A stretch of DNA of 64,000 bases from Mayamaea pseudoterrestris (taxonomy: Eukaryota), in contig BROI01000029.1 of NCBI GenBank assembly GCA_027923505.1, forward strand, positions 62,001-126,000, given 5' to 3'. The position numbers and the translations under genes are program-made. Positions 3,712 to 62,505 of the stretch are shown piece after piece. How positions within the stretch are numbered: the stretch's first letter is position 1; each line of letters begins with the position of its first letter. The notes beneath the pieces are model-generated. The model was not told where the DNA came from, ran no database searches, and saw only the letters and a program-made list of their open reading frames with translations.

Positions 3712-4008
3712 TCAAAGTTTCTGGCACTACTCTTTGAGCCACAGTCAACGAACGTCCGTTGAAAATCAAAGTTATTGGCACTACTATTTGAACCACAGTC
3801 AACGTCCGTTGAAAATCAAATTCATTGGCACCATACTGTTCCAATCACAGTCAGCGTACGTTGAAAATCAAAGTTATTGGCACTGCTGTTTGAACCCCAG
3901 TCGACATCCGTTGAAAATCAAAGTTTTTGGCACTACTGTTTGATGTACAGTGTCAATAACTTTGATTTATTTCAAAGTTTTTGGACTACTCTTTGATCGA
4001 CAGTCGGG
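3712..4008. repeat. ~50-bp tandem minisatellite, about 6 degenerate copies
   Basis: Unit resembles GTTGAAAATCAAAGTTATTGGCACTACTATTTGAACCACAGTCAACGTCC and recurs about every 50 bp. Confidence 0.85.
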
Positions 4009-30359: not shown

Positions 30360-30830
30360 TATTGCCTAATGACGTAGTTTTCACTGGCACTCGTTTCACA
30401 ATATTGCCTCGTGAACTAGTTTTCACTGGCACTCGTTTCATACTATTGCCTTAATGACGTAGTTTTCACTGGCACTCGTTTCACACTATTGCCTTAAGAC
30501 GTAGTTTTCATTGGCACTCGTTTCACACTATTGCCTCATGACGTAGTTTTCACTGTCACTCGTTTCACAATATTGCCTCATGACGTAATTGACACTGGCA
30601 CTTGTTTCACAGTATTGCCTCATGACGTAATTGACACTGGCACTTGTTTCACAATATTGCCTCATGACGTAATTGACACTGGCACTTGTTTCGCAGTATT
30701 GCCTCATGACGTAATTGACACTGGCAGTTGTTTCACAGTATTGCCTCATGACGTAATTGACACTGGCACTCGTTTCATCCTATTGCCTTATGACGTAATT
30801 GACACTGGCACTTGTTTCGCAGTATTGCCT
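30360..30830. repeat. 42-bp tandem minisatellite, 11 copies plus a partial, two subtypes
   Basis: Unit TATTGCCTCATGACGTAATTGACACTGGCACTTGTTTCACAG. Copies 1-5 carry TAGTTTTCA and copies 6-11 carry TAATTGACA. Confidence 0.95.
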
Positions 30831-47288: not shown

Positions 47289-48005
47289 GCTAATGCCTTA
47301 TATACGTACTGATGGCTGCTCCCTTGAAGCCGATTTGTGGAAACGGATGGAGACTCTATAGTCTATAGCGATCGTGTATTGCCTAGGAGTTATCGCTACA
47401 GCGACTCTTCAAGTTAAACTGAAAGTGAAACTGCGAGTCCAGATGGTACTTGTATTGCTTTATCGTCGTTGTTGTTTCGTCGATCGACGGTCCAAGTGCT
47501 GCATATCAAATATCAAGGCGAATCGTCTTGTTTTTCACAACAGCTGGTAGAAGTACCAATATAAGATACATGGAGTAACCGCGATGATGATCGCGGAGTC
47601 GGCTGGTGCCGCAAAGTTGGACACGTGGAAGAGGTTTGGAGTATGACATTGTCAAGGACGATGAGGTGTGATGGTGATTGTTTGTCGGACGAGTGATCGT
47701 CAAGGTGCTGCTCTGTCGAAAGTCACATCGGTTATTGGGTCACGAACCGACATATTCAAGACAGATGCTGACGTGGTAAATTCGTTGGGCTTCTTGTCTG
47801 CGAAAATAATAGCCTTGATTTGTATAAAGTGCGTCACAAGCGGATCTTTGCAACGGAAGGTGACGCGTCGGAAGTAAGCGACGACGAATGCAACATGACA
47901 GTTGGCCGTCTCTCTGTGGCTCTGCAGTCTCTTGAAGCTTAGAACAGGTACTGTAGCGTAGCCTTACTTGCTCATTTACTCGTCAGAACTGATCAAACTG
48001 CTACC

Positions 48006-48854
48006 ATGGGAAAGAAGAGCAAAAAGGGCCGCACGAATACCAAGCCCAAGCATCACGCGGCTGGAGCAGGAGGAAGTCGTCGATCCGCAGGATCCGTTGC
48101 GAGCGACATGCATTCGCAGTCTCAAGCGACTGCTTCAGTCGATGGCTTTGGAAATAAGCATGCCGCCATGCACATGAGCAAGCCTACGACCAAGGCGCCG
48201 CCTGTCAGCGTCATGGTGCCGAGTCCAATGCCGGAAAACAAGACGCTGCCGTCCTTGCTTGGCGACGACAATACGAAAGGTGCGACGGATGACGACGACA
48301 TTCAACAGACGCCATCCTCGACAGCGGAAAGTACGCCCGAGCCATCGCCAACCAAGGCGAACACGACGACGGACAAGAAGGAAGCTGCTGCTGCTGCTGC
48401 TGCCGCCGCCGTCGTTACGGCTACCAAAGCGAACAAGGAGGAGCTTGCTGCAGCTGCTGCATCCTCGACGACTCCTGCGCCATTGTCAATTGACACCAGC
48501 AGCACGAATTCTCCTCGCAATGCCGACCTTCCGCCATTCACAATGGATGCTGTCGAAAATGACAAGGATACAAAGCAGCATCCAATCACTCCCGACGAAG
48601 TCATGCGATCAACCGTTTCCTTGCGCGAGCAATTTGATACTACACAAGATGCGGACCTCTCCATCGACAATGACAAGGCCGTCTTGGATGTCACCGTTGA
48701 TGATGTTGCTTTGAATCCAATCTTGCCAAGCGTCAAGGGCAAGAACGATTCGGATGGCGGCAGCAGCAACAACAAGAATTTGAATTTGAACGCGCCATCC
48801 TTGGAAGAGTCGAATGACGTGCAACAGGGAGGCGACTGCTGCATTATCCAGTAA
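48006..48854 (+). CDS. Hypothetical intrinsically disordered protein with C-terminal CaaX-like motif
   Basis: 282-aa ORF in ACC-ATG-G context, basic N-terminus MGKKSKK, ends in DCCIIQ-stop. Confidence 0.7.
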   Translation: MGKKSKKGRTNTKPKHHAAGAGGSRRSAGSVASDMHSQSQATASVDGFGNKHAAMHMSKPTTKAPPVSVMVPSPMPENKTLPSLLGDDNTKGATDDDDIQQTPSSTAESTPEPSPTKANTTTDKKEAAAAAAAAAVVTATKANKEELAAAAASSTTPAPLSIDTSSTNSPRNADLPPFTMDAVENDKDTKQHPITPDEVMRSTVSLREQFDTTQDADLSIDNDKAVLDVTVDDVALNPILPSVKGKNDSDGGSSNNKNLNLNAPSLEESNDVQQGGDCCIIQ

Positions 48855-49252: not shown

Positions 49253-52200
49253 TGGCAATGTGACTGGTGAGAAAAGTTCTCACCAGTCTCAGCCCACAGA
49301 TGCCTTGACATTCAAACGGCCCTACAGCAAGCCATGTATACACCCAAAACTACACCAGAATAGTAAGATGGTATGCTTGGCTGGTGTCTCAGTGGACTGG
49401 AATGTGATTGGTGGCAACTTGTCACCAGTCTCAGCCAACAGAAGCCTTGACATTCAAACACCCCTATAGCAAGCCCTGTAGGTGTCCAAAATACTTCAGA
49501 ATGGTGCCAACATCATTATTCAGGCTACGCGACAAGATGGTAGGCTTGGCTGGTGTCTCAGTGGACTGCAATGTAACTGGTGACAACTTGTCACCAGTCT
49601 CAGCCCGCAGATGCCTTGACATTCAAACGGCCCTATAGCAAGCCCTGTAGGTGTCCAAAATACAGCAGAATGGTGCCAACATCATTAATCTGGCTGCGCT
49701 ACAAGATGGTAGGCTTGGCTGGTGTCTCCGGGGATGGCAATGTATTTGGTGACAACTTGTCACCAGTCTCAGCCCACTGATGCCGTGACATTCAAATGCC
49801 CTTACATCAGGCCCTGTAGGCGCCCAAATTACACCAGAATGGTGCCAACATCATTATTCAGGCTGTGCAACAAGATGGTAGGCTTGGCTGGTGTTTCTGG
49901 GGATGGCAAATGGTGACAACTTGTCACCAGTCTCAGCTTGTCGATGCCATGACATTCAAACGCCCCTATAGCAAGCCCTGTAGGTGTCCAAATTACACCA
50001 GAATGGTGCCAACATCATTATTCAGGCTGTGCTACCAGATGATAGGCTTGGCTGGTGTCTCAGGAGATGGCAATGTATTTGGTGACAACTTGTCACCAGT
50101 CTCAGCCCGCAGATGCCGTGACATTCTAACAGACCTACAGCAGGCCGGGTAGGTGCCCAATATACACCAGAATGGTACCAACATCATTATTCAGGCTGCC
50201 CTACAGGATGGTTGGCTTGACTGGTGTCTCAGGGAATGGCAATCTATGTGGTGACAACTTGTCACCAGTCTCAGCCCGCAGATGCCATGACATTCTAACA
50301 GATCTACAGCAGGCCTGGTTGATGCCCAAATTACACTAAAATGGAGCCAACATCATTTGTTAGGCTGCGCTACAAGATGGTAGGCTTGGCTGGTGTCTCA
50401 GTGGACTGCAACGTATTTGGTGACAACTTGTCACCAGTCTCAGCCCACTGATGCCATGACATTCAAATACCCCTACATCAGGCCCTGTAGGCGCCCAAAT
50501 TACACCAGAATGGTGCCAACATCATTATTCAGGCTCCGCGACAAGATGGTAGGCTTGGCTGGTGTCTCAGGGGATGGCAATGTATTTGGTGACAACTTGT
50601 CACCAGTCTCAGCCCACAGATGCCGTGACATTCAAACACACCTACAGCAAGCCCTGCAGATGCCTAAAATACACCAGAATGGAGCCAACATCATTATTCA
50701 GGCTGCGCTACAAGATGGTAGGCTTGGCTGGTGTCTCAGGGGATGGCAATGTATTTGGTGACAACTTGTCACCAGTCTCAGCCCGCTGATGCCGTGACAT
50801 TCAAACGCCCCTATAGCAGGCCCTGTAGGTGTCCAAATTACACCAGAATTGTGTCAACATCATCATTCAAGCTGCGCGACAAGATGGTAGGCTTGGCTGG
50901 TGTCTCCAGGGATGGCAATGTATTTGGTGACAACTTGTCACCAGTCTCAGCCCTCAGATGCCGTAACATTCAAACACCCCTACAGCAAGCCCTGTAGGTG
51001 CCCAAAATACACCAGAATGGTGCCAACATCATTTTTCAGGCTGCGCTACAAGATGGTAGGCTTGGCTGGTGTCTCCGGGGATGACAATGTATTTGGTGAC
51101 AACTTGTCACCAGTCTCAGCCCGCAGATGCCGTGACATTCAAACGCCCCTACAGCAAGCCCTGTAGGTCCCCAAAATACACCAGAATGGTGCCAACATCA
51201 TTATTCAGGCTGCGCTACAAGATGGTAGGCTTGGCTGGTGTCTCAGGGGATGGCAATGTATTTGGTGACAACTTGTCACCAGTCTCAGCCCACAGATGCC
51301 GTGACATTCAAACGCCCCTACAGCAAGCCCTGTAGGTGCCCAAAATACACCAGAATGGTGCCAACAATCTTATTCAGGCTGCGCTACAAGATGGTAGGCT
51401 TGGCTGGTGTCTCAGGGGATGGCAATGTATTTGGTGACAACTTGTCACCAGTCTCAGCCCACAGATGCCGTGACATTCAAACACCCCTACAGCAAGCCCT
51501 GTAGGTGCCCAAAATACACCAGCATGGTGCCAACATCATTATTCAGACTGCGCTACAAGATGGTAGGCTTGGCTGGTGTCTCAGGGGATGGCAATGTATT
51601 TGGTGACTATTTGTCACCAGTCTCAGCCCACAGATGCCATGACATTCAAACACCCCTGTAGCAAGCCCTGTAGGTCCCCAAAATACACCAGAATGGTGCC
51701 AACATCATTATTCAGGCTGCGCTACAAGATGGTAGGCTTGGCTGGTGTCTCAGGGGATGGCAATGTATTTGGTGACAACTTGTCACCAGTCTCAGCCCAC
51801 TGATGCCGTGACATTCAAACGCCCCTACATCAGGCCCTGTAGGTGCCCAAAATACACCAGAATGGTGCCAACATCATTTTTCAGGCTGCGCTACAAGATG
51901 GTAGGCTTGGCTGGTGTCTCCGGGGATGGCAATGTATTTGGTGACAACTTGTCACCAGTCTCAGCCCACTGATGCCATGACATTCAAACGCCCCTACATT
52001 GGGCCCTGTAGGTGCCCAAAATACACCAGAATGGTGCCAAAATCATTTTTCAGGCTGCGCTACAAGATGGTATGCTTGGCTGGTGTCTCCGGGGATGGCA
52101 ATGTATTTGGTGACAACTTGTCACCAGTCTCAGCCTGCAGATGCCATGACATTCAGACACACCTACAGCATGCCCGGTAGGTGCCCAAACTACACCAGAA

Positions 52201-54315
52201 TGGTGCCAACATCCTTATTCAGGCTGCGCTACAAGATGGTATGTCTGGCTGGTGTCTCAGGGGATGGCAATGTATTTGGTGACAACTTGTCACCAGTCTC
52301 AGCCCGCAGATGCCATGACATTCAAACGCCCCTACAGCAAGCCCTGTAGGTGCCCAAAATACACCAGAATGGTGCCAACATCATTATTCAGGCTGCGCTA
52401 CAAAATGGTAGGCTTGGCTGGTGTCTCCGGGGATGGCAATGTATTTGGTGACAACTTGTCACCAGTCTCAGCCTGCTGATGCCGTGACATTCAAACACAC
52501 CTACAGCAAGCCCTGTAGGTGCCCAAATTACACCAGCATGGTGCCAACATCATTTTTCAGGCTGCGCTACAAGGTGGTAGGCTTGGCTGGTGTCTCAGGG
52601 GATGGCAATGTATTTGGTGACAATTTGTCACCAGTCTCAGCCCACAGATGCCGTGACATTCAAACGCCCCTACAGCAAGATCTGTAGGTGCCCAAAATAC
52701 ACCAGATTGGTGTCAACATCATTATTCAGGCTGCGCTACAAGATGGTAGGCTTGGCTGATGTCTCCGGGGATGGCAATGTATTTGGTGACAACTTGTCAC
52801 CAGTCTCAGCCCACTGATGCCATGGCATTCAAACGCCCCTACATCGGGCCCTGTAGGTGCCCAAAATACACCAGAATGGTGCCAAAATCATTTTTCAGGC
52901 TGCGCTACAAGATGGTATGCTTGGCTGGTGTCTCCGGGGATGGCAATGTATTTGGTGACAACTTGTCACCAGTCGCAGCCCACTGATGCCATGACATTCA
53001 AACGCCCCTACATTGGGCCCTGTAGGTGCCCAAAATACACCAGAATGGTGCCAAAATCATTTTTCAGGCTGCGCTACAAGATGGTATGCTTGGCTGGTGT
53101 CTCCGGGGATGGCAATGTATTTGGTGACAACTTGTCACCAGTCTCAGCCTGCAGATGCCATGACATTCAGACACACCTACAGCATGCCCGGTAGGTGCCC
53201 AAACTACACCAGAATGGTGCCAACATCCTTATTCAGGCTGCGCTACAAGATGGTATGTCTGGCTGGTGTCTCAGGGGATGGCAATGTATTTGGTGACAAC
53301 TTGTCACCAGTCTCAGCCCGCAGATGCCATGACATTCAAACGCCCATACAGCAAGCCCTGTAGGTGCCCAAAATACACCAGAATGGTGCCAACATCATTA
53401 TTCAGGCTGCGCTACAAAATGGTAGGCTTGGGTGGTGTCTCCGGGGATGGCAATGTATTTGGTGACAACTTGTCACCAGTCTCAGCCTGCTGATGCCGTG
53501 ACATTCAAACACACCTACAGCAAGCCCTGTAGGTGCCCAAATTACACCAGCATGGTGCCAACATCATTTTTCAGGCTGCGCTACAAGGTGGTAGGCTTGG
53601 CTGGTGTCTCAGGGGATGGCAATGTATTTGGTGACAATTTGTCACCAGTCTCAGCCCACAGATGCCGTGACATTCAAACGCCCCTACAGCAAGATCTGTA
53701 GGTGCCCAAAATACACCAGATTGGTGTCAACATCATTATTCAGGCTGCGCTACAAGATGGTAGGCTTGGCTGGTGTCTCAGGAGATGGCAATGTATTTGG
53801 TGACAACTTGTCACCAGTCTCAGCCCAGAGATGCCGTGACATTCAAACGCCCCTACATCGGGCCCTGTAGGTGCCCAAAATACACCAGAATGTTGCCAAC
53901 ATCATTTTTCAGGCTGCGCTACAAGATGGTAGGCTTGGCTGGTGTCTCCGGGGATGGCAATGTATTTGGTGACAACTTGTCACCAGTCTCAGCCCGCTGA
54001 TGCCGTGACATTCAAATGCCCCTATAGCAAGCCCTGTAGGTGTCCAAATTACACCAGAATGGTGCCAACATCATTATTCAAACTGCGCGACAAGATGGTA
54101 GGCTTGGCTGGTGTCTCCGGGGATGGCAATGTATTTGGTGACAACTTGTCACCAGTCTCAGCCCACTGATGCCGTGACATTCAAACGCCCCTATAGCAAG
54201 CCCTGTAGGTGTCCCAAATACACCAGAATGGTGCCAACATCATTGTTCAGGCTGCGCTACAAGAAAAACTGCCTGGCTGGTCCCTTAGTAGACTGCAATG
54301 TGATTGGTGACAGCT
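49253..54315 (+). repeat. Satellite A: 169-bp tandem array, about 30 copies (forward block 1)
   Basis: Monomer ...GGCAATGTATTTGGTGACAACTTGTCACCAGTCTCAGCCC...CCTACAGCAAGCCCTGTAGG... The ORF track starts recur every 169 bp. Edge copies are more diverged. Confidence 0.97.
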
Positions 54316-54319
54316 AACT

Positions 54320-57059
54320 GGCATGTATAAAGGATGCAGGATGTGCTATCCATTCAATGGTATACCTTCAAACCCTCCAGTAAAATGACTGGTGTTGGGT
54401 TCAGCCATGGTTTCAGCTATTCAAATACAAACACACTCAATAGCCAGAGCCATGAGCCAGCCTGCTTCAATATGAGTCTTTGCGATTGCTAGGCATGGCT
54501 TAAAGATCCAGGATGTGCAACCCATTAACCCTTTACCTTCAAACCCTCCAGTAGAATGACCTGGGTTTGGTTCATCAATGGTTTCAGCTATTCAAATACA
54601 AACACACTCAATAGCTATAGCCATGAGCCAGCCAGTTTTAATCTGAGTCTTGGTGGTTGCAAGGAATGGATTATGGATGTAGGATGTGCAATCCGTTCAA
54701 TGGTTTACCTTCACACCCTCCAGTAAAATGACTGGGGTTGGGTGGGGTTTGGTGGTGTCTGGCAGGCACATGGGTTTCAGCTATTCAAACACACTCAATA
54801 GCCATAGCCATGGGCCATCCAGCTTCAATATGAGGCTCTGCGGTTGCTAGGAATGCTTAAAGGATGCAGGATGTGCAATTCATTCAATGGTATACCTACA
54901 ACTCCTCCAGGAAAATGACCGGGGCTGGGTTCGGCATGGGTCCAACTACTCAATTATAAACAAACTCAATAGCCATAGGCATGTGCCAGCCAGCTTCAAT
55001 CTGAGTCTCTGCGGTTGCTAGGCATGCATAAAGGATGCAGGATGTGCAATCCATTCAATGGTATACCTTCAAACCCTCCAGTAAAATGACCGGGGTTGGG
55101 TTCAGCCATGTTTTCAGCTATTCAAATACAAACACACTCAATAGCCATAGCCATAGCCATGAGCCAGCCTGCTTCAATATGAGTCTCTGCGATTGCTAGG
55201 CATGGATTAAAGATCCAGGATGTGCAATCCATTCAACCGTATACCTTGAAACCCTCCAGTAAAATGACTGGGGTTGGGTTCAGCCATGGTTTCAGCTATT
55301 CAAATACAAACACACTCAATAGCCACAGCATGAGCCAGCCAGCTTCAATATGAGTCTCTGCGGTCGCTAGGCATGCATAAAGGATGTAGGCTGTGCAATC
55401 TATTCAATGGTTTACCTTCACACCCTCCAGTAAAATGACCGGGGTTGGGTGGGGTTTGGTGGTGGCTAGCAGGCACCTTGGTTTCAGCTATTCAATCACA
55501 CTCAATAGCCATAGCCATGGGCCATCCAGCTTCAATATGAGTCTCTGCGGTTGCTAGGCATGCATAAAGGATGCAGGATATGCAATCCATTCAATGGTAT
55601 ACCTACAACTCCTCCAGTAAAATGACCGGGGTGGGGTTTGGCATGGGTCCAGCTACTCAAATATAAACACACTCAATAGCCATAGGCATGTGCCAGCCAG
55701 CTTCAATCTGAGTCTCTGCGGTTGCTAGGCATGTATAAAGGATGCAGGATGTGCAATCCATTCAATGGTATACCTTTAAACCCTCCAGTAAAATGACCTG
55801 GGTTGGATTCAGCCAAGGTTGCAGCTATTCAAATACAAACACACTCAATAGCCATAGCCATGAGCCAGCCTGCTTCAATATGAGTCTCTGCGGTTGCTAG
55901 GCATGGATTAAAGATCCAGGATGTGCAATCCATTCAACCGTATACCTTCAAACCCTCCAGTAAAATGACTGGGGTTGGGTTCAGCCATGGTTTCAGCGAT
56001 TCAAATACAAACACACTCAGTAGCCATAGCCATGAGCCAGCCAGCTTCAATCTGAGTCTTTGCAGATGCCAGGCATGGATTATGGATGTAGGATGTGCAA
56101 TCCGTTCAATGGTTTACCTTCACACCCTTTAGTAAAATGACCGGGGTTGGGTGGGGTTTGGTGGTGTCTGGCATGCACATGGGTTTCAGCTATATAAACA
56201 CACTCAATAGCCAAAGACATGGGCCATCCAGCTTCAATATGAGGCTCTGCGGCTGCTAGGAATGCTTAAAGGATGCAGGATGTGCAATCCATTCAATGGT
56301 ATACCAACAACTCCTCCAGGAAAATGACCGGGGTTGGGTTTAGCATGGGTCCAGCTAATCAACTATAAACACACTCAATAGACAAAGGCATGTGCCATCC
56401 AGCTTCAATCTGAGTTTCTGCGGTTGCTAGGCATGTATAAAGGATGCAGGATGTGCAATCCATTCAATGGTATACCTTCTAACCCTCCAGTAAAATGACC
56501 GGGGTTGGGTTCATTCATGGGTCCAGCTACTCAAATACAAACACACTCAAAAGCCATAGCCATTAGCCAGCCTGCTTCAATATGAGTCTCTGCGATTGCT
56601 AGGCATGGATTATGGATGTAGAATGTGCAATCCATTCAATGGTTTACCTTCACAATCTATAGTAAAATGACCGGGGTTGGGTGGGGTTTGGTGGTGTCTG
56701 CCAGGCACATGGGTTTCAGCTATTCAAACACACTCAATAGCCATATCCATGGGCCATTCAGCTTCAATATGAGTCACTGTGGTCGCTAGGCATGGATTAT
56801 AGATCCAGGATGTGCAATCCATTCAATGGTATTCCTTCAAACCCTCCAGTAAAATGAATGGGGTTGGGTTCAGCCATGGTTTCAGCTATTCAAATACAAA
56901 CACACTTGATAGCCATAGCCATGAACCAGCCAGCTTCAATAAGAGTCTCTGTGGTTCCAAGGCATGGATTATGGATGTAGGATGTGCAATCCATTTAATG
57001 TTATACCTTCAAACCCTCCAGATATTGACCTGGGTTGGGTTCAGCAATGGTTTCAGCTA
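54320..57059. repeat. Satellite B: ~171-172/187-bp monomers, 15 full plus 1 partial, 4-mer higher-order repeat
   Basis: Monomer starts at about 54320, 54492, 54663, 54850, 55021, 55199, 55370, 55557, 55728, 55900, 56072, 56259, 56430, 56602, 56789 and 56961. The 187-bp variant carries GGGGTTGGGTGGGGTTTGGTGG. Confidence 0.95.
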
Positions 57060-57875
57060 CACCCCTATAGCAAGCCCTGTAGGTGTCCAAAATACACCAG
57101 AATGGTGCCAACATCATTATCCAAGCTGCGCAACAATATGGTAGGCTTGGCTGGTGTCTCACGGGATGGCAATGTATTTGGTGACAACTTGTCACCAGTT
57201 TCAGCCCGCTGATGCCATACACTCAGACACACCTACATCAGGCCCGGTAGGTGCCCAAATTACACCAGAATATTGCCAACCTCATTATTCCGGCTGCGCT
57301 ACAAAATGGTAGGCTTGCCTGTTGTCTCCGTGGATGGCAATGTATTTGGTGACAACTTGTCACCAGTCTCAGCCCACAGATGCCGTGACATTCAAACGCC
57401 CCTACATCAGGCCCTGTAGGTGCCCAAATTACACCAGAATGGTGCCAACATCTCTTTTTAGGCTGTGCTACAAAATGGTAGGCTTGCCTGGTGTCTCCGG
57501 GGATGGCAATGTATCTGATGACAACTTGTCACCAGTCTCAGCCCGCAGATGCCGTGACATTCAAACGCCCCTACATCAGGCCATGTGGGTTTCCAAATTA
57601 CACCAAAATTGTGTCATCATCATTATTCAGGCTGCGCTACAAGATGGTAGGCTTGGCTGGTGTCTCAGGGAATGGCAATGTATTTGGTGACAACTTGTCA
57701 CCAGTCTCAGCCTGCTGATGCCGTGACATTCAAACGCCCCTACATCAGGCCCTGTAGGTGTCCAAATTACACCAGAATGGTGCCAACATCATTATTATTT
57801 AGGCTGCGCTACAAGATGGTAGGCTTGGCTGGTGTCTCCGGGGATGGCAATGTATTTGGTGACAACTTGTCACCA
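57060..57875 (+). repeat. Satellite A forward block 2 (about 5 copies)
   Basis: The same 169-bp monomer resumes at ACCCCTATAGCAAGCCC directly after satellite B. Confidence 0.95.
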
Positions 57876-60800
57876 TTTGGGCACCTACAGGGTTTGCTGT
57901 AGGGGTGTTTGAATGTCATGGCATCAGCGGGCTGAGACTGGTGACAAGTTGTCACCAATTACATTGCCATCCCCTGAGACACCAGCCAAGCATACCATTT
58001 TGTAGCGCAGCCTGAATAATGATGTTGGCATCATTCTAGTGTAATTTGGGCACCTACAGGGCCTGATGTAGGGGCGTTTGAATGTCACGGCTTCAGTGGG
58101 CTGAGACTGGTGACAAGTTGTCACCAAATATATTGCCATCCCCAAAGGCACCAGCCAAGCCTACCATCTTGTTGCGCAGCCTGAACAATGATGTTGGCAC
58201 CATTCTGGTGTATTTTGGGCACCTACAGGGCTTGCTTTAGGGGGCGTTTGAATGTCACGGCATCAGCGGGCTGAGACTGGTGACAAGTTGCCACCAAATA
58301 CATTGCCATCCCCTGAGACACCTGCCAAGCCTACCATCTTGTTGCGCAGCCTGAATAATGATGTTGGCACCATTCTGGTGTATTTTGGGCACCTACAGGG
58401 CTTGCTGTAGGGGCATTTGAATGTCATGGCATCAGCGGGCTGAGACTGGTGACAATTTGTCACCAAATACATTGCCATCCCCTGAGACACCAGCCAAGCC
58501 TACCATCTGGTTGCGCAGCCTGAATAATGATGTTGGCACCATTCTGGTGTATTTTGGGCACCTACATGGCTTGCTGTAGGGGCGTTTGAATGTCACGACT
58601 TCTGCGGGCTGAGACTGGTGACAAGTTGTCACCAAATACATTGCCATCCCCTTAGACACCAGCCAAGCCTACCATCTTGTAGCGCAGCCTGAATAATGAT
58701 GTTTGCAGCATTCTGGTGTATTTTGGGCACCTACAGGGCTTGCTGTAGGGGCGTTTGAATGTCACGGCATCTGCGGGCTGAGACTGGTGACAAGTTGTCA
58801 CCAAATACATTGCCAACCCATGAGACACCAGCCAAGCCTACCATCTTGTTGCGCAGCCTGATTAATGATGTTGGCAGCATTCTGGTGTATTTTGGGCACC
58901 TACAGGGCTTGCTGTAGTGGCGTTTGAATGTCACGGCATCTGCAGGCTGAGACTGGTGACAGGTTGTCACCAAATACATTGCCATCCCCTGAGACACCCA
59001 CCAAGCCTACCATCTTGTCGCGCAGCCTGAATAATGATGTTGGCAGCATTCTGGTGTTTTTTGGGCACCTACAGGGCTTGCTGTAGGGGTGTTTGAATGT
59101 CACGGCATCTGCGGGCTGAGACTGGTGACAAGTTGTCACCAAATACATTGCCATCCCCGGAGACACCATCCAAGCCTACCATCTTGTAGCGCAGCCTGAA
59201 AAATGATGTTGGCAGCATTCTGGTGTAATTTGGGTGTATACAGGGCATGTTATAGGGGCAATTATACGTCACAGCATCTGCAGGCTGAGACTGGTGACAA
59301 GTTGTCACCAAATACATTGCCATCGCCAGTGACACCAGCCAAGTCTACCATCTTGTAGCGCAGCCTGAAAAATGATGTTGGCACCATTCTGGTGTAATTT
59401 GGACACCTACAGGGCTTGCTATAGGGGTGTTTGAATGTCATGGCATCGACGGCTGAGACTGGTGACAGGTTGTCACCAAATACATTGCCATCCCCTGAGA
59501 CACCCACCAAGCCTACCATCTTGTCGCGCAGCCTGAATAATGATGTTGGCAGCATTCTGGTGTTTTTTGGGCACCTACAGGGCTTGCTGTAGGGGCGTTT
59601 GAATGTCACGGCATCTGCGGGCTGAGACTGGTGACAAGTTGTCACCAAATACATTGCCATCCCCGGAGACACCATCCAAGCCTACCATCTTGTAGCGCAG
59701 CCTGAATAATGATGTTGGCAGCATTCTGGTGTATTTTGGGCACCTACAGGGCTTGCTGTAGGGGCGTTTGAATGTCACGGCATCTGCGGGCTGAGACTGG
59801 TGACAAGTTGTCACCAAATACATTGCCACCCCAAGAGACACCAGCCAAGCCTACCATCTTGTTGCGCAGCCTGAATAATGATGTTGTCACCATTCTGGTG
59901 TAATTTGGACACCTACAGGGCTTGCTGTAGGGGCGTTTGAATGTCCCGGCATCTGCGGCCTGAGACTGGTGACAAGTTGTCACCAAATACATTGCCATCC
60001 CCTGAGACACCAGCCAAGCCTACCATCTTGTAGAGCAGCCTAATTAAGGATGTTGGCACCCTACAGGGCTTGCTATAGTGGCGTTTGAATGTCACGGCAT
60101 CTGTGGGCTGAGACTGGTGACAAGTTGTCACCAAATACATTGCCATCCCCTGAGACACCAGCCAAGCCTACCATCTGGTTGCGCAGCCTGCATAATGATG
60201 TTGGCACCATTCTGGTGTATTTTGGGCACCTACAGGGCTTGCTGTAGGGGCGTTTGAATGTCACGGCATCTGCAGGCTGAGACTGGTGACAGGTTGTCAC
60301 CAAATACATTGCCATCCCCTGAGACACCCACCAAGCCTACCATCTTGTCGCGCAGCCTGAATAATGATGTTGGCAGCATTCTGGTGTATTTTGGGCACCT
60401 ACAGGGCTTGCTATAGGGGCGTTTGAATGTCACGGCATCAGCGGGCTGAGACTGGTGACAAGTTGTCACCAAATACATTGCCATCCCCGGAGACACCAGC
60501 CAAGCCTACCATCTTGTAGCGCAGCCTGAAAAATGATGTTGGCAACATTCTGGTGTATTTTGGACACCTACAGGGCCTGATGTAGGGGCGTTTGAATGTC
60601 CCGGCATCCGCGGGCTGAGGCTGGTGAGAAGTTGTCACCAAATACATTGCCATCCCCTGAGACACCAGCCAAGCCTACCATCTTGTAGAGCAGCCTGATT
60701 AATGATGTTGGCACCCTACAGGGCTTGCTGTAGGGGCGTTTGAATGTCACGGCATCTGCGGGCTGAGACTGGTGACAAGTTGTCACCAAATACATTGCCA

Positions 60801-62110
60801 TCCCCTGAGACACCAGCCAAGCCTACCATCTTGTAGCGCAGCCTGAATAATGATGTTGTCACTATTCTGGTGTATTTTGGGCACCTACATGGCTTGCTGT
60901 AGGGGCGTTTGAATGTCACGACTTCTGCAGGCTGCGACTGGTGACAAGTTGTCACCAAATACATTGCCATCCCCTGAGACACCCACCAAGCCTACCATCT
61001 TGTCGCGCAGCCTGAATAATGATGTTGGCAGCATTCTGGTGTATTTTGGGCACCTACAGGGCTTGCTGTAGGGGCGTTTGAATGTCACGGCATCTGCGGG
61101 CTGAGACTGGTGACAAGTTGTCACCAAATACATTGCCATCCCCTGAGACACCAGCCAAGCCTACCATCTTGTAGCGCAGCCTGAATAATGATGTTGGCAC
61201 CATTCTGGTGTATTTTGGGCACCTACATGGCTTGCTGTAGGGGCGTTTGAATGTCACGGCATCTGCGGGCTGAGACTGGTGACAAATTGTCACCAAATAC
61301 ATTGCCATCCCCTTAGACACCTGCCAAGCCTACCATCTTGTTGCGCAGCCTGAATAATGATGTTGTCACCATTCTGGTGTAATTTGGACACCTACAGGGC
61401 TTGCTGTAGGGGCGTTTGAATGTCCCGGCATCTGCGGCCTGAGACTGGTGACAAGTTGTCACCAAATACATTGCCATCCCCTGAGACACCAGCCAAGCCT
61501 ACCATCTTGTAGAGCAGCCTGATTAATGATGTTGGCACCATTCTGGTGTATTTGGGGCACCTACAGGGCCTGATGTAGGGGCGTTTGAATGTCATGGCAT
61601 CAGTGGGCTGCGACTGGTGACAAGTTGTCACCAAATACATTGCCATCCCCGGAGACACCAGCCAAGCATACCATCTGGTTGCGCAGCCTGCATAATGATG
61701 TTGGCACCATTCTGGTGTATTTTGGGCACCTACAGGGCCCGATGTAGGGGCGTTTGAATGTCATGGCATCAGTGGGCTGAGACTGGTGACAAGTTGTCAC
61801 CAAATACATTGCCATCCCCGGAGACACCAGCCAAGCCTACCATCTTGTAGCGCAGCCGGAACAATGATGTTGGCACCATTCTGGTGTATTTGGGACACCT
61901 ACAGGGCTTGCTACAGGGGCGTTTGAATGTCACGGCATCTGTGGGCTGAGACTGGTGACAAGTTGTCACCAAATACATTGCCATCTCCTGAGACACCAGC
62001 CAAGCCTACCATCTGGTAGCACCGCCTAAATAACGATGTTGGCACCATTCTGGTGTATTTGGGACACCTACAGGGCTTGCTGTAGGGGCGTTTGAATGTC
62101 ACGGCATCTG
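57876..62110 (-). repeat. Satellite A inverted block (about 25 copies)
   Basis: Reverse complement of the 169-bp monomer; the repeat-derived ORFs switch to the minus strand from 57924. Confidence 0.97.
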
Positions 62111-62505
62111 TAACACCGTTGACGATTTCGCAGTCAACGTCTTACCTCCAAAAAGCTCCGATACAGGGTCCTTGGCCACGGTCTGTACAGCTCTTGATGG
62201 AGATGGCTCGTCGAATAGTCTTGCGCTCGCCACTACACGAATACGACTGCACTCTCGTCGCAAACTAGTAGTTCTATATTGTGAGCTTATCGCTACATCG
62301 CTACATCGACCACTCGGAAGATCATCCGATCAATCCGTTTCTTTCAATCACATTACATCAGTCGTAACTGGTCGTTCCATTCATACAACGCATCCACACG
62401 ACGGTTGCGCACTTTCTTCATTCACATGTCACATACGACAGCTGCGGACTCGACACAAGCTAATTAGGGTTCGGGCTCTTGACTTCGCCGCTCTGCGACT
62501 TGTCA
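62111..62505 (-). repeat. Putative 3' LTR (~395 bp)
   Basis: Starts TGACA right after the PPT and ends ...GGTGTTA(CA) at the satellite junction (boundary 62109-62111 is ambiguous). The 5' LTR is outside the window, so this is unconfirmed. Confidence 0.7.

What the first reader, a model, noticed from the sequence alone, without database searches (positions are those of the whole stretch)
49253..62110. 13-kb composite nucleosome-length satellite domain: candidate satellite-type centromere or heterochromatin block
Seen: an abrupt switch from dense genes to about 60 copies of a 169-bp monomer plus 16 copies of an unrelated ~172-bp monomer, with higher-order repeats, diverged edge copies, an internal strand inversion and a copia insertion. 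Established: mono-nucleosome-length monomers, higher-order repeats, orientation switches and retrotransposon invasion characterise plant and animal satellite centromeres, whereas centromeres of the model diatom Phaeodactylum are described as short low-GC segments. Inference: this may be a satellite-based centromere in a diatom-like genome.
Basis: partly seen in the sequence, partly recalled or inferred. Interest (0 to 1): 0.75.

Follow-up and report, generated by a model that had tools for sequence, protein, structure and literature searches.

The report
Scattered satellite DNA islands in diatom
This repeat block in a diatom is real, but it is one of many similar silent-looking islands scattered between genes and favoured by a jumping gene, so it does not mark a single centromere per chromosome, although a many-centromere layout like that of some sedges is not ruled out.

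Summary
In detail: about 60 copies of a 169-bp repeat (A), 16 of an unrelated 172-bp repeat (B), local higher-order repeats, an inversion and a copia insertion. The array resumes beyond the window and is about 33 kb. The host is a pennate diatom. At least 13 mostly unrelated, CpG-depleted satellite families form these islands. Two young copia families insert in satellites at 23 of 51 sites. The window's family clusters beside A's conserved 19-bp palindrome, and its integrase ends in a predicted Tudor-like plus chromodomain fold. Best reading: methylated heterochromatin islands resembling Tribolium Cast satellites (0.55). Rivals: one CENH3-bearing array per chromosome (0.28); a Tyba-like repeat-based holocentromere (0.15). 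CENH3 binding could not be tested. The scan noted this satellite family before on other DNA of this genome; the genome map and insertion hotspot were tested here.

The parts
49253..54315 (+). Satellite A array (169-bp monomer), diverged at both edges
51895..53753 (+). Local higher-order repeat: near-identical blocks of A monomers offset by six monomers (1014 bp)
   Evidence: variant table; lag-6 minimum distance 0
51263..51281 (.). One example of the 19-bp palindrome of A (monomer positions 45-63), the most conserved 19-bp window of the monomer
   Evidence: (98.1% against 90.9% over 722 monomers; shuffle P 0.002)
54320..57059 (+). Satellite B array, 16 copies of 171-187 bp with a 3-4-monomer pattern; unrelated to A
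57059..57875 (+). Short A array ending at the end of a palindrome, at the strand switch
57876..62110 (-). Inverted A array, with a shortened (148-bp) monomer recurring at 655 bp
62111..62505 (-). 395-bp LTR of a young copia element, inserted at monomer position 75 of A; 25 of 43 listed matches have the top score
62460..63998 (-). Reverse transcriptase part of the copia polyprotein frame; the integrase with a Tudor-like plus chromodomain-like end lies just beyond the window (L021:302-784)
47943..48854 (+). Last open frame (303 aa, no Pfam match) before the array; marks the abrupt gene-to-satellite border

Best explanation
The block is one of more than 110 interstitial satellite islands in a compact pennate-diatom genome, not a unique centromere landmark. 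Shown: a dominant 169-bp family and at least 12 other, mostly unrelated families with 144-186-bp units (or dimers) sit side by side in islands between genes, all strongly CpG-depleted. Two young copia families insert into them far more often than their share of the genome. Inferred mechanism: arrays grow and homogenise by unequal exchange and are copied to new sites. They are CpG-methylated (DNMT5 does this at repeats in Phaeodactylum, PMC9998398) and packed as heterochromatin. Copia elements whose integrase ends in a Tudor-like plus chromodomain module read that chromatin and land in it, one family in phase beside the conserved palindrome, which suggests phased nucleosomes or a bound protein. 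On this reading the kinetochore is not specified by these islands as a class.
For: 6684 exact copies of a 25-mer, none for the reversed control; calibrated up to about 12,000 monomers. At least 113 loci on 37 of 41 contigs; 9 on C1, 7 each on C12 and C13. 20 of 20 loci picked from the hit lists held A, without N gaps; 12 had 14 or more monomers and 8 were small, mostly diverged remnants. Telomere repeats only at the start of C11, so stretches between arrays are not whole chromosomes ending in telomeres. Spacing no more regular than random: 8 gaps of 600 kb or more against 7.1 expected (P 0.42); the largest gap, 1.71 Mb, has P 0.014; no A in 20 of 20 windows of 10 kb across C2:20-828 kb. CpG o/e 0.13-0.43 in the 14 families tested against about 1.0-1.3 in genes and copia. 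Copia sites in satellites 23 of 51, P 4e-5 even against a 20% share. The integrase end folds at pLDDT 91.5 and its residues 78-144 match chromo and chromoshadow domains at Z 6.0-6.8, rmsd 2-3.5 A over 50-57 residues. A close non-centromeric precedent exists in Tribolium (PMC11610590, passages).
Against: Nothing here measures CENH3, methylation or H3K9 marks directly. 9 of 44 sampled contig ends lie in A, so some arrays are longer than assembled and could be true centromeres. Some contigs show only one sampled A locus (C19, C32, C34). One family kept 98-100% identical across many contigs, with a conserved palindrome, is also what centromeric repeats show. Copia elements can target CENH3 chromatin (Tal1, PMC11735389; CoLT in an oomycete, PMC7082073; passages). 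The chromodomain call rests on middling Z scores, Pfam found none, and the third aromatic cage position (recalled) looks replaced.
Confidence: 0.55

Rival explanations
1. Monocentric chromosomes in which one large A array per chromosome, often collapsed at a contig break, carries CENH3, while the other arrays are inert copies. This 33-kb block may or may not be the active one.
For: 9 of 44 sampled contig ends lie in A. Several 0.44-0.67-Mb contigs carry A only at one end (C20, C21, C22, C24, C25), as arms broken at a centromeric array would. This block is larger than the mean (about 11-18 kb). One CENH3-like H3 gene is present. No Phaeodactylum-type low-GC box was found in any fetched stretch of 3 kb or more (maximum 3 low windows). 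Localised kinetochores are described in two pennate diatoms (PMC2111477, abstract).
Against: C29 itself has a second A array at its end. Large and medium arrays occur several times on single contigs. Only about 3% of the genome was read directly, so low-GC centromeres elsewhere are not excluded.
Confidence: 0.28
2. A repeat-based holocentromere or polycentromere like Rhynchospora Tyba: most A arrays load CENH3 and form a line of kinetochore units along each chromosome.
For: One dominant 169-bp family, arrays of a few to more than 30 kb between genes, median inner spacing 151 kb, and locus number rising with contig length (rho 0.69). Tyba is 172 bp in domains of about 20 kb (PMC11538461, passages) with spacing from 247 kb upward (10.64898/2026.01.17.700053, section 10). 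Conserved dyad; dyad symmetries were more abundant in functional Lusy1 arrays (PMC11538461). CENH3-like gene present.
Against: Spacing is random to clumped, with a 1.71-Mb A-free stretch and 8 gaps of 600 kb or more, whereas Tyba is described as evenly distributed. Scaling with length is also what random dispersal gives. Many unrelated families share the islands. Phaeodactylum is monocentric by ChIP (10.1101/096016, passages), and no holocentric diatom turned up in the listing. Overall folding of A is no better than shuffles (z -0.13).
Confidence: 0.15
3. The many-locus pattern is an assembly artefact: contigs are chimeras joined through subtelomeric or centromeric arrays.
For: Only one telomere is assembled. 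A satellite next to that telomere (F4) also occurs inside contigs. The right half of this block is deletion-rich (gaps 4-9%). All 6 strand switches seen are head-to-head (and window).
Against: It would need over 100 chromosomes, many under 150 kb (lower quartile of spacing 88 kb). Arrays have diverged edges running into unique genes on both sides. 8 of 20 sampled loci are small remnants. Array orientation at edges is mixed.
Confidence: 0.05

Closest known systems
Tribolium castaneum Cast1-Cast9 non-centromeric satellites (PMC11610590, passages read)
   Same: Several unrelated families with units of about 170 and 340 bp, roughly 100-260 arrays per large family, mean arrays of 1-31 kb in gene-rich regions, 4.6% of the genome.
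   Different: Cast arrays lie in transposon-poor surroundings; here young copia elements are enriched in the arrays, the families pile into composite islands, one family dominates, and CpG loss is strong.
Rhynchospora Tyba holocentromeric satellite (PMC11538461 passages; 10.64898/2026.01.17.700053 passages and section 10)
   Same: About 170-bp monomer, many arrays of about 20 kb among genes, array number rising with chromosome length.
   Different: Tyba is evenly spread and CENH3-bound; here spacing is random with megabase gaps and CENH3 binding is untested. No sequence comparison with Tyba was made.
Monocentric satellite centromeres with centrophilic copia (Arabidopsis repeats with ALE/Tal1, PMC11735389 passages)
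   Same: Nucleosome-length monomer, higher-order repeats, strand switches, young copia insertions inside arrays.
   Different: One large array per chromosome there; over 110 small arrays here.
Described diatom centromeres (Phaeodactylum, 10.1101/096016; Fistulifera, 10.1101/2021.11.10.468027; passages read)
   Same: Same algal group; intergenic position.
   Different: Those are short, low in GC and lack high-copy repeats; this block is 46-51% GC with no low-GC box.
CoDi-A chromodomain-bearing copia elements of diatoms (PMC2774666, passages; its alignment supplement not read)
   Same: Diatom copia with a putative chromodomain at the integrase end.
   Different: Here the model adds a Tudor-like barrel in front, and insertion into a satellite in phase was measured; clade membership was not tested by a tree.

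Membership tests
Monocentric satellite centromere | Nucleosome-length monomer in tandem arrays with higher-order repeats | tested here: met
   169 and 172 bp; local 6-mer and 3-4-mer patterns
Monocentric satellite centromere | About one major locus per chromosome | tested here: not met
   At least 113 loci on 37 of 41 contigs, up to 9 per contig; contigs are not whole chromosomes
Monocentric satellite centromere | A single very large array | tested here: inconclusive
   This block is 33 kb; 9 of 44 sampled contig ends break in A, so larger arrays may be collapsed
Monocentric satellite centromere | CENH3 occupancy and kinetochore position | not testable with these tools
   No chromatin data among the 7 runs listed
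Repeat-based holocentromere (Tyba type) | One dominant satellite of about 170 bp in many arrays among genes | tested here: met
Repeat-based holocentromere (Tyba type) | Even spread along whole chromosomes | tested here: not met
   Gaps no more regular than random; 1.71-Mb stretch without sampled A; 0 of 20 windows on C2:20-828 kb held A, 1 held another satellite. The map rests on rare-variant sampling and is a lower bound
Repeat-based holocentromere (Tyba type) | A CENH3 gene | tested here: met
   One divergent H3 at C2:130 kb with a short divergent tail, a one-residue-longer loop 1 and changes at two diagnostic positions (criteria recalled); orthology not tested by a tree
Repeat-based holocentromere (Tyba type) | CENH3 on most arrays; line-like kinetochore | not testable with these tools
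   Needs ChIP and cytology
Phaeodactylum-type diatom centromere | At least ten 100-bp windows of 32% GC or less within 3 kb; no high-copy repeats | tested here: not met
   0 such windows in the block, at most 3 across C29:62-176 kb
Dispersed non-centromeric satellite library (Cast type) | Several unrelated families of about 170/340 bp in arrays among genes | tested here: met
   14 families from the fetched loci; only one pair above z 3.5
Dispersed non-centromeric satellite library (Cast type) | Transposon-poor surroundings | tested here: not met
   23 of 51 young copia sites lie in satellites
Dispersed non-centromeric satellite library (Cast type) | Absence of centromere function | not testable with these tools
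   Needs CENH3 mapping
CoDi-A chromodomain copia | Copia reverse transcriptase downstream of integrase | tested here: met
   RVT_2; an integrase-like core (motif recalled, not detected by Pfam) precedes it in the frame
CoDi-A chromodomain copia | Chromodomain at the integrase C-terminus | tested here: inconclusive
   Fold matches are coherent (chromo and chromoshadow domains, Z 6.0-6.8; Foldseek best E 0.0035), but Z is under 8 and Pfam and sequence searches found none
CoDi-A chromodomain copia | Placement in clade CoDi-A | not tested
   No reference sequences at hand

The most novel reading that the evidence does not exclude
This diatom has a repeat-based holocentric or polycentric chromosome: most 169-bp arrays carry CENH3 in phased nucleosomes, the conserved palindrome positions a loading factor, and a copia with a Tudor-chromodomain integrase lands beside it. 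No such case in diatoms appeared in my searches.
Probability: 0.15. Interest if true: 0.88.

Novelty: new variant of a known kind. Interest (0 to 1): 0.5.

Why it matters
Described diatom centromeres are short, AT-rich and repeat-poor, and diatom heterochromatin is described as methylated transposon islands. A 30-Mb diatom genome that spends at least 4-7% of its DNA on one nucleosome-length satellite, spread over more than 110 islands, extends that picture whichever role the islands have. A copia family that lands at one phase of the monomer gives a simple read-out of chromatin targeting by a chromodomain-bearing copia. One CENH3 experiment would separate three very different chromosome architectures, one of which (repeat-based holocentricity in a diatom) would be a major surprise.

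Tried and rejected
Subtelomeric-only satellite: rejected; A is mostly interstitial and the one assembled telomere is flanked by another family, F4. Satellite carried by a transposon with shared flanks: in the visible part the shared neighbours were copia elements and other satellites, with no common terminal sequence; not fully excluded. Conservation in other species: runs X4 and X5 (organisms C, D) show the same variant letters at a few tenths of a percent of X1's depth and come from the same study, so I treat them as likely cross-contamination, not evidence. Summed contig depth is not a copy number and was not used. No RNA holder was listed; this says nothing on expression. Strong secondary structure: A z -0.13, B z +0.95. 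A motif shared among families, like a CENP-B box: the A palindrome is absent from the other 13 (6 or more mismatches of 17). Phase preference of the second copia family: none (P 0.53). Pfam and solved-structure sequence searches for a chromodomain: negative; the atlas gave only a 0.76 lead. An atlas search with one flanking frame gave nothing usable. C2:860-1,670 kb was not read directly, so that part of the gap rests on variant sampling alone. Literature searches for satellite or holocentric centromeres in diatoms (listings only) showed no such report; a 325-genome centromere atlas has no occurrence of 'diatom' in its main text (supplements closed). Subscription papers are not covered.

Full report
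Observation. Satellite A (169 bp) runs on + at 49253-54315, satellite B (16 copies, 171-187 bp) at 54320-57059, A again on + to 57875, and A on - from 57876 to 62110. A and B are unrelated. Edge copies are diverged. Higher-order repeats are local: one six-monomer duplication in A and a recurring 187-bp unit in B. The copia (RVT_2) begins at 62111. The neighbouring stretches show its second LTR and then more A to C29:144.2 kb, so the block is about 33 kb with about 141 A copies. The part beyond the element is deletion-rich (gaps 4-9%) and the far LTR is only 86% identical to the near one, which may be assembly error or decay. Both monomers are in short-read contigs of two studies.

Host. The genome G000 has 30.6 Mb in 41 contigs. 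Named homologs of a flanking cation exchanger are diatoms, with pennates ranking highest. Eight exact telomere units were found only at the start of C11, so contigs are not whole chromosomes.

Genome map. A 25-mer from the core of A has 6684 exact matches and its reversed control none. That is at least 3.7% of the assembly; calibration on fetched loci, which are biased to diverged arrays, gives up to 6.6%. Listings stop at 100 rows, so I mapped A with rare single-base variants (one search listed 100 of 157) plus loci from other calls. Merging at 40 kb gives 113 loci on 37 of 41 contigs, median inner spacing 151 kb; a Chao2 estimate from the three complete searches is 105, so the map is probably near saturation but remains a lower bound. 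Of 20 loci picked from the hit lists, many of them single hits, all held A; 12 had 14 or more monomers and 8 were small remnants. Spacing is not regular: 8 gaps of 600 kb or more against 7.1 expected at random, and a largest gap of 1.71 Mb with P 0.014. Twenty 10-kb windows over C2:20-828 kb held no A and one other satellite. Against my reading, 9 of 44 sampled contig ends lie in A and 5 in other satellites (contigs chosen partly because they lacked hits), so some arrays are longer than assembled.

The islands are composite. The fetched loci hold 14 tandem families with units of 144-186 bp or dimers of these, beside or within A arrays; only one pair is clearly related. One family, F4, adjoins the single assembled telomere and also occurs inside contigs. 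All are CpG-depleted (o/e 0.13-0.43), whereas genes and the young copia are not (1.0-1.3). In A, transitions at CpG sites are 70 of 448 against 95 of 4469 at other C and G sites. This is the trace of long-term 5-methylcytosine (inference); in Phaeodactylum CG methylation by DNMT5 coincides with H3K9me and H3K27me3 at repeats (PMC9998398, passages). The block has no low-GC box of the kind that marks Phaeodactylum centromeres (10.1101/096016, passages).

A conserved palindrome. Positions 45-63 of A form a 19-bp palindrome (shuffle P 0.002) and are the most conserved 19-bp window: 98.1% against 90.9% over 722 monomers. It lacks CpG and a palindrome may self-correct, so a binding site is possible but not shown. 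The monomer as a whole folds no better than shuffles, and other families lack the motif.

Copia targeting. I searched with the LTRs of two young families (40 of 96 and 40 of 130 candidates scored; 80 of 84 listed hits fetched). After grouping LTRs into elements and dropping the two query elements, 23 of 51 sites lie in satellites, 5 in copia elements and 23 elsewhere, 11 of these in CpG-poor flanks (two flanks were relabelled as satellite). Enrichment holds against a 20% share (P 4e-5); about 30% of the genic part of the window lies outside long frames. Purging of insertions in genes may add to it. For the window's family, 6 of 7 distinct sites in A start at positions 67-75, in both orientations, just beside the palindrome (P about 1e-5); counting only distinct positions gives 4 of 5 and P 0.002. 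This set includes the window's own site and two junctions found at a contig end, and a local sequence preference is not excluded. The second family shows no phase (P 0.53).

Pfam and sequence searches found none. A model built on 74 aligned homologs (pLDDT 91.5) has two small barrels. Residues 78-144 match chromo and chromoshadow domains at Z 6.0-6.8 and residues 2-75 match Tudor-like domains at Z 5-6. These scores are middling but the rows agree. Loci of the second family carry the same module at 33-40% identity. CoDi-A diatom copia elements are described with a putative chromodomain (PMC2774666, passages). A chromatin reader explains targeting without CENH3, but copia elements that follow CENH3 are known too (PMC11735389; PMC7082073; passages).

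Mechanism and odds. Shown: dispersal, composite islands, CpG loss, copia enrichment and phase, and one CENH3-like H3 among 20 histone-fold hits. Inferred: methylated heterochromatin, phased chromatin and reader-guided integration. The closest described system is the Tribolium Cast library of non-centromeric satellites (PMC11610590, passages), and I give that kind of reading 0.55. One CENH3-bearing array per chromosome among many inert ones gets 0.28. A Tyba-like repeat-based holocentromere gets 0.15: monomer, array size and spacing fit, but the spread is not even, and localised kinetochores are described in two pennate diatoms (PMC2111477, abstract). A purely artefactual pattern gets about 0.05.

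Novelty. Dispersed satellite islands and chromodomain copia elements are known kinds. My searches (listings, term search) showed no report of such satellites or of holocentric chromosomes in diatoms, within the limits of the library. The scan's earlier notes describe the same family at other places in this genome as methylated islands with an untested centromere role; they are not independent evidence. Verdict: real, a new variant of a known kind, interest 0.5.

Noticed in passing
window 57875/57876; L030, L053, L055, L059, L068: All 6 strand switches seen inside A arrays are head-to-head (+ then -); chance about 0.03. The window's switch falls exactly at the end of a palindrome.
   Followed up: partly
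L147:6-2219 (C11 start); L028:4960-8851 (C1:605-609 kb): Satellite F4 (172/180 bp) directly adjoins the only assembled telomere, lies at four other contig starts in the same orientation, and also sits inside C1 beside a large A array; possibly an old chromosome end or a misjoin.
   Followed up: partly
L037:1252-1782 (C2:130.1-130.6 kb): Single divergent histone H3 with one intron and CENH3-like features; the obvious antigen for a ChIP test.
   Followed up: partly
window 30360-30830; L061:926-1133: A 42-bp tandem repeat (11 copies) that also occurs on C12; not part of the finding.
   Followed up: no
window 3712-4006; L053:1239-1421; L065:6865-6952: A 50/52-bp AT-richer tandem repeat with normal CpG content that recurs at other loci.
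   Followed up: no
L061:9059-10000; L207:8561-10000: Satellite F10 (348 bp) contains a perfect 29-bp palindrome.
   Followed up: no
L083, L084, L073, L129, L130: Tandem LTR-LTR arrangements and nested insertions of the two copia families; the first family's LTR ends in TA rather than CA on the element strand.
   Followed up: no
G000:C41 (78 kb): Small contig rich in A, B and copia; one copia junction has the same target site as the window's, so it may be a duplicate or an alternative haplotype.
   Followed up: no
L025:5758-7261 (C29:171.8-173.3 kb): A further CpG-poor 144-bp satellite array about 28 kb beyond the block.
   Followed up: partly
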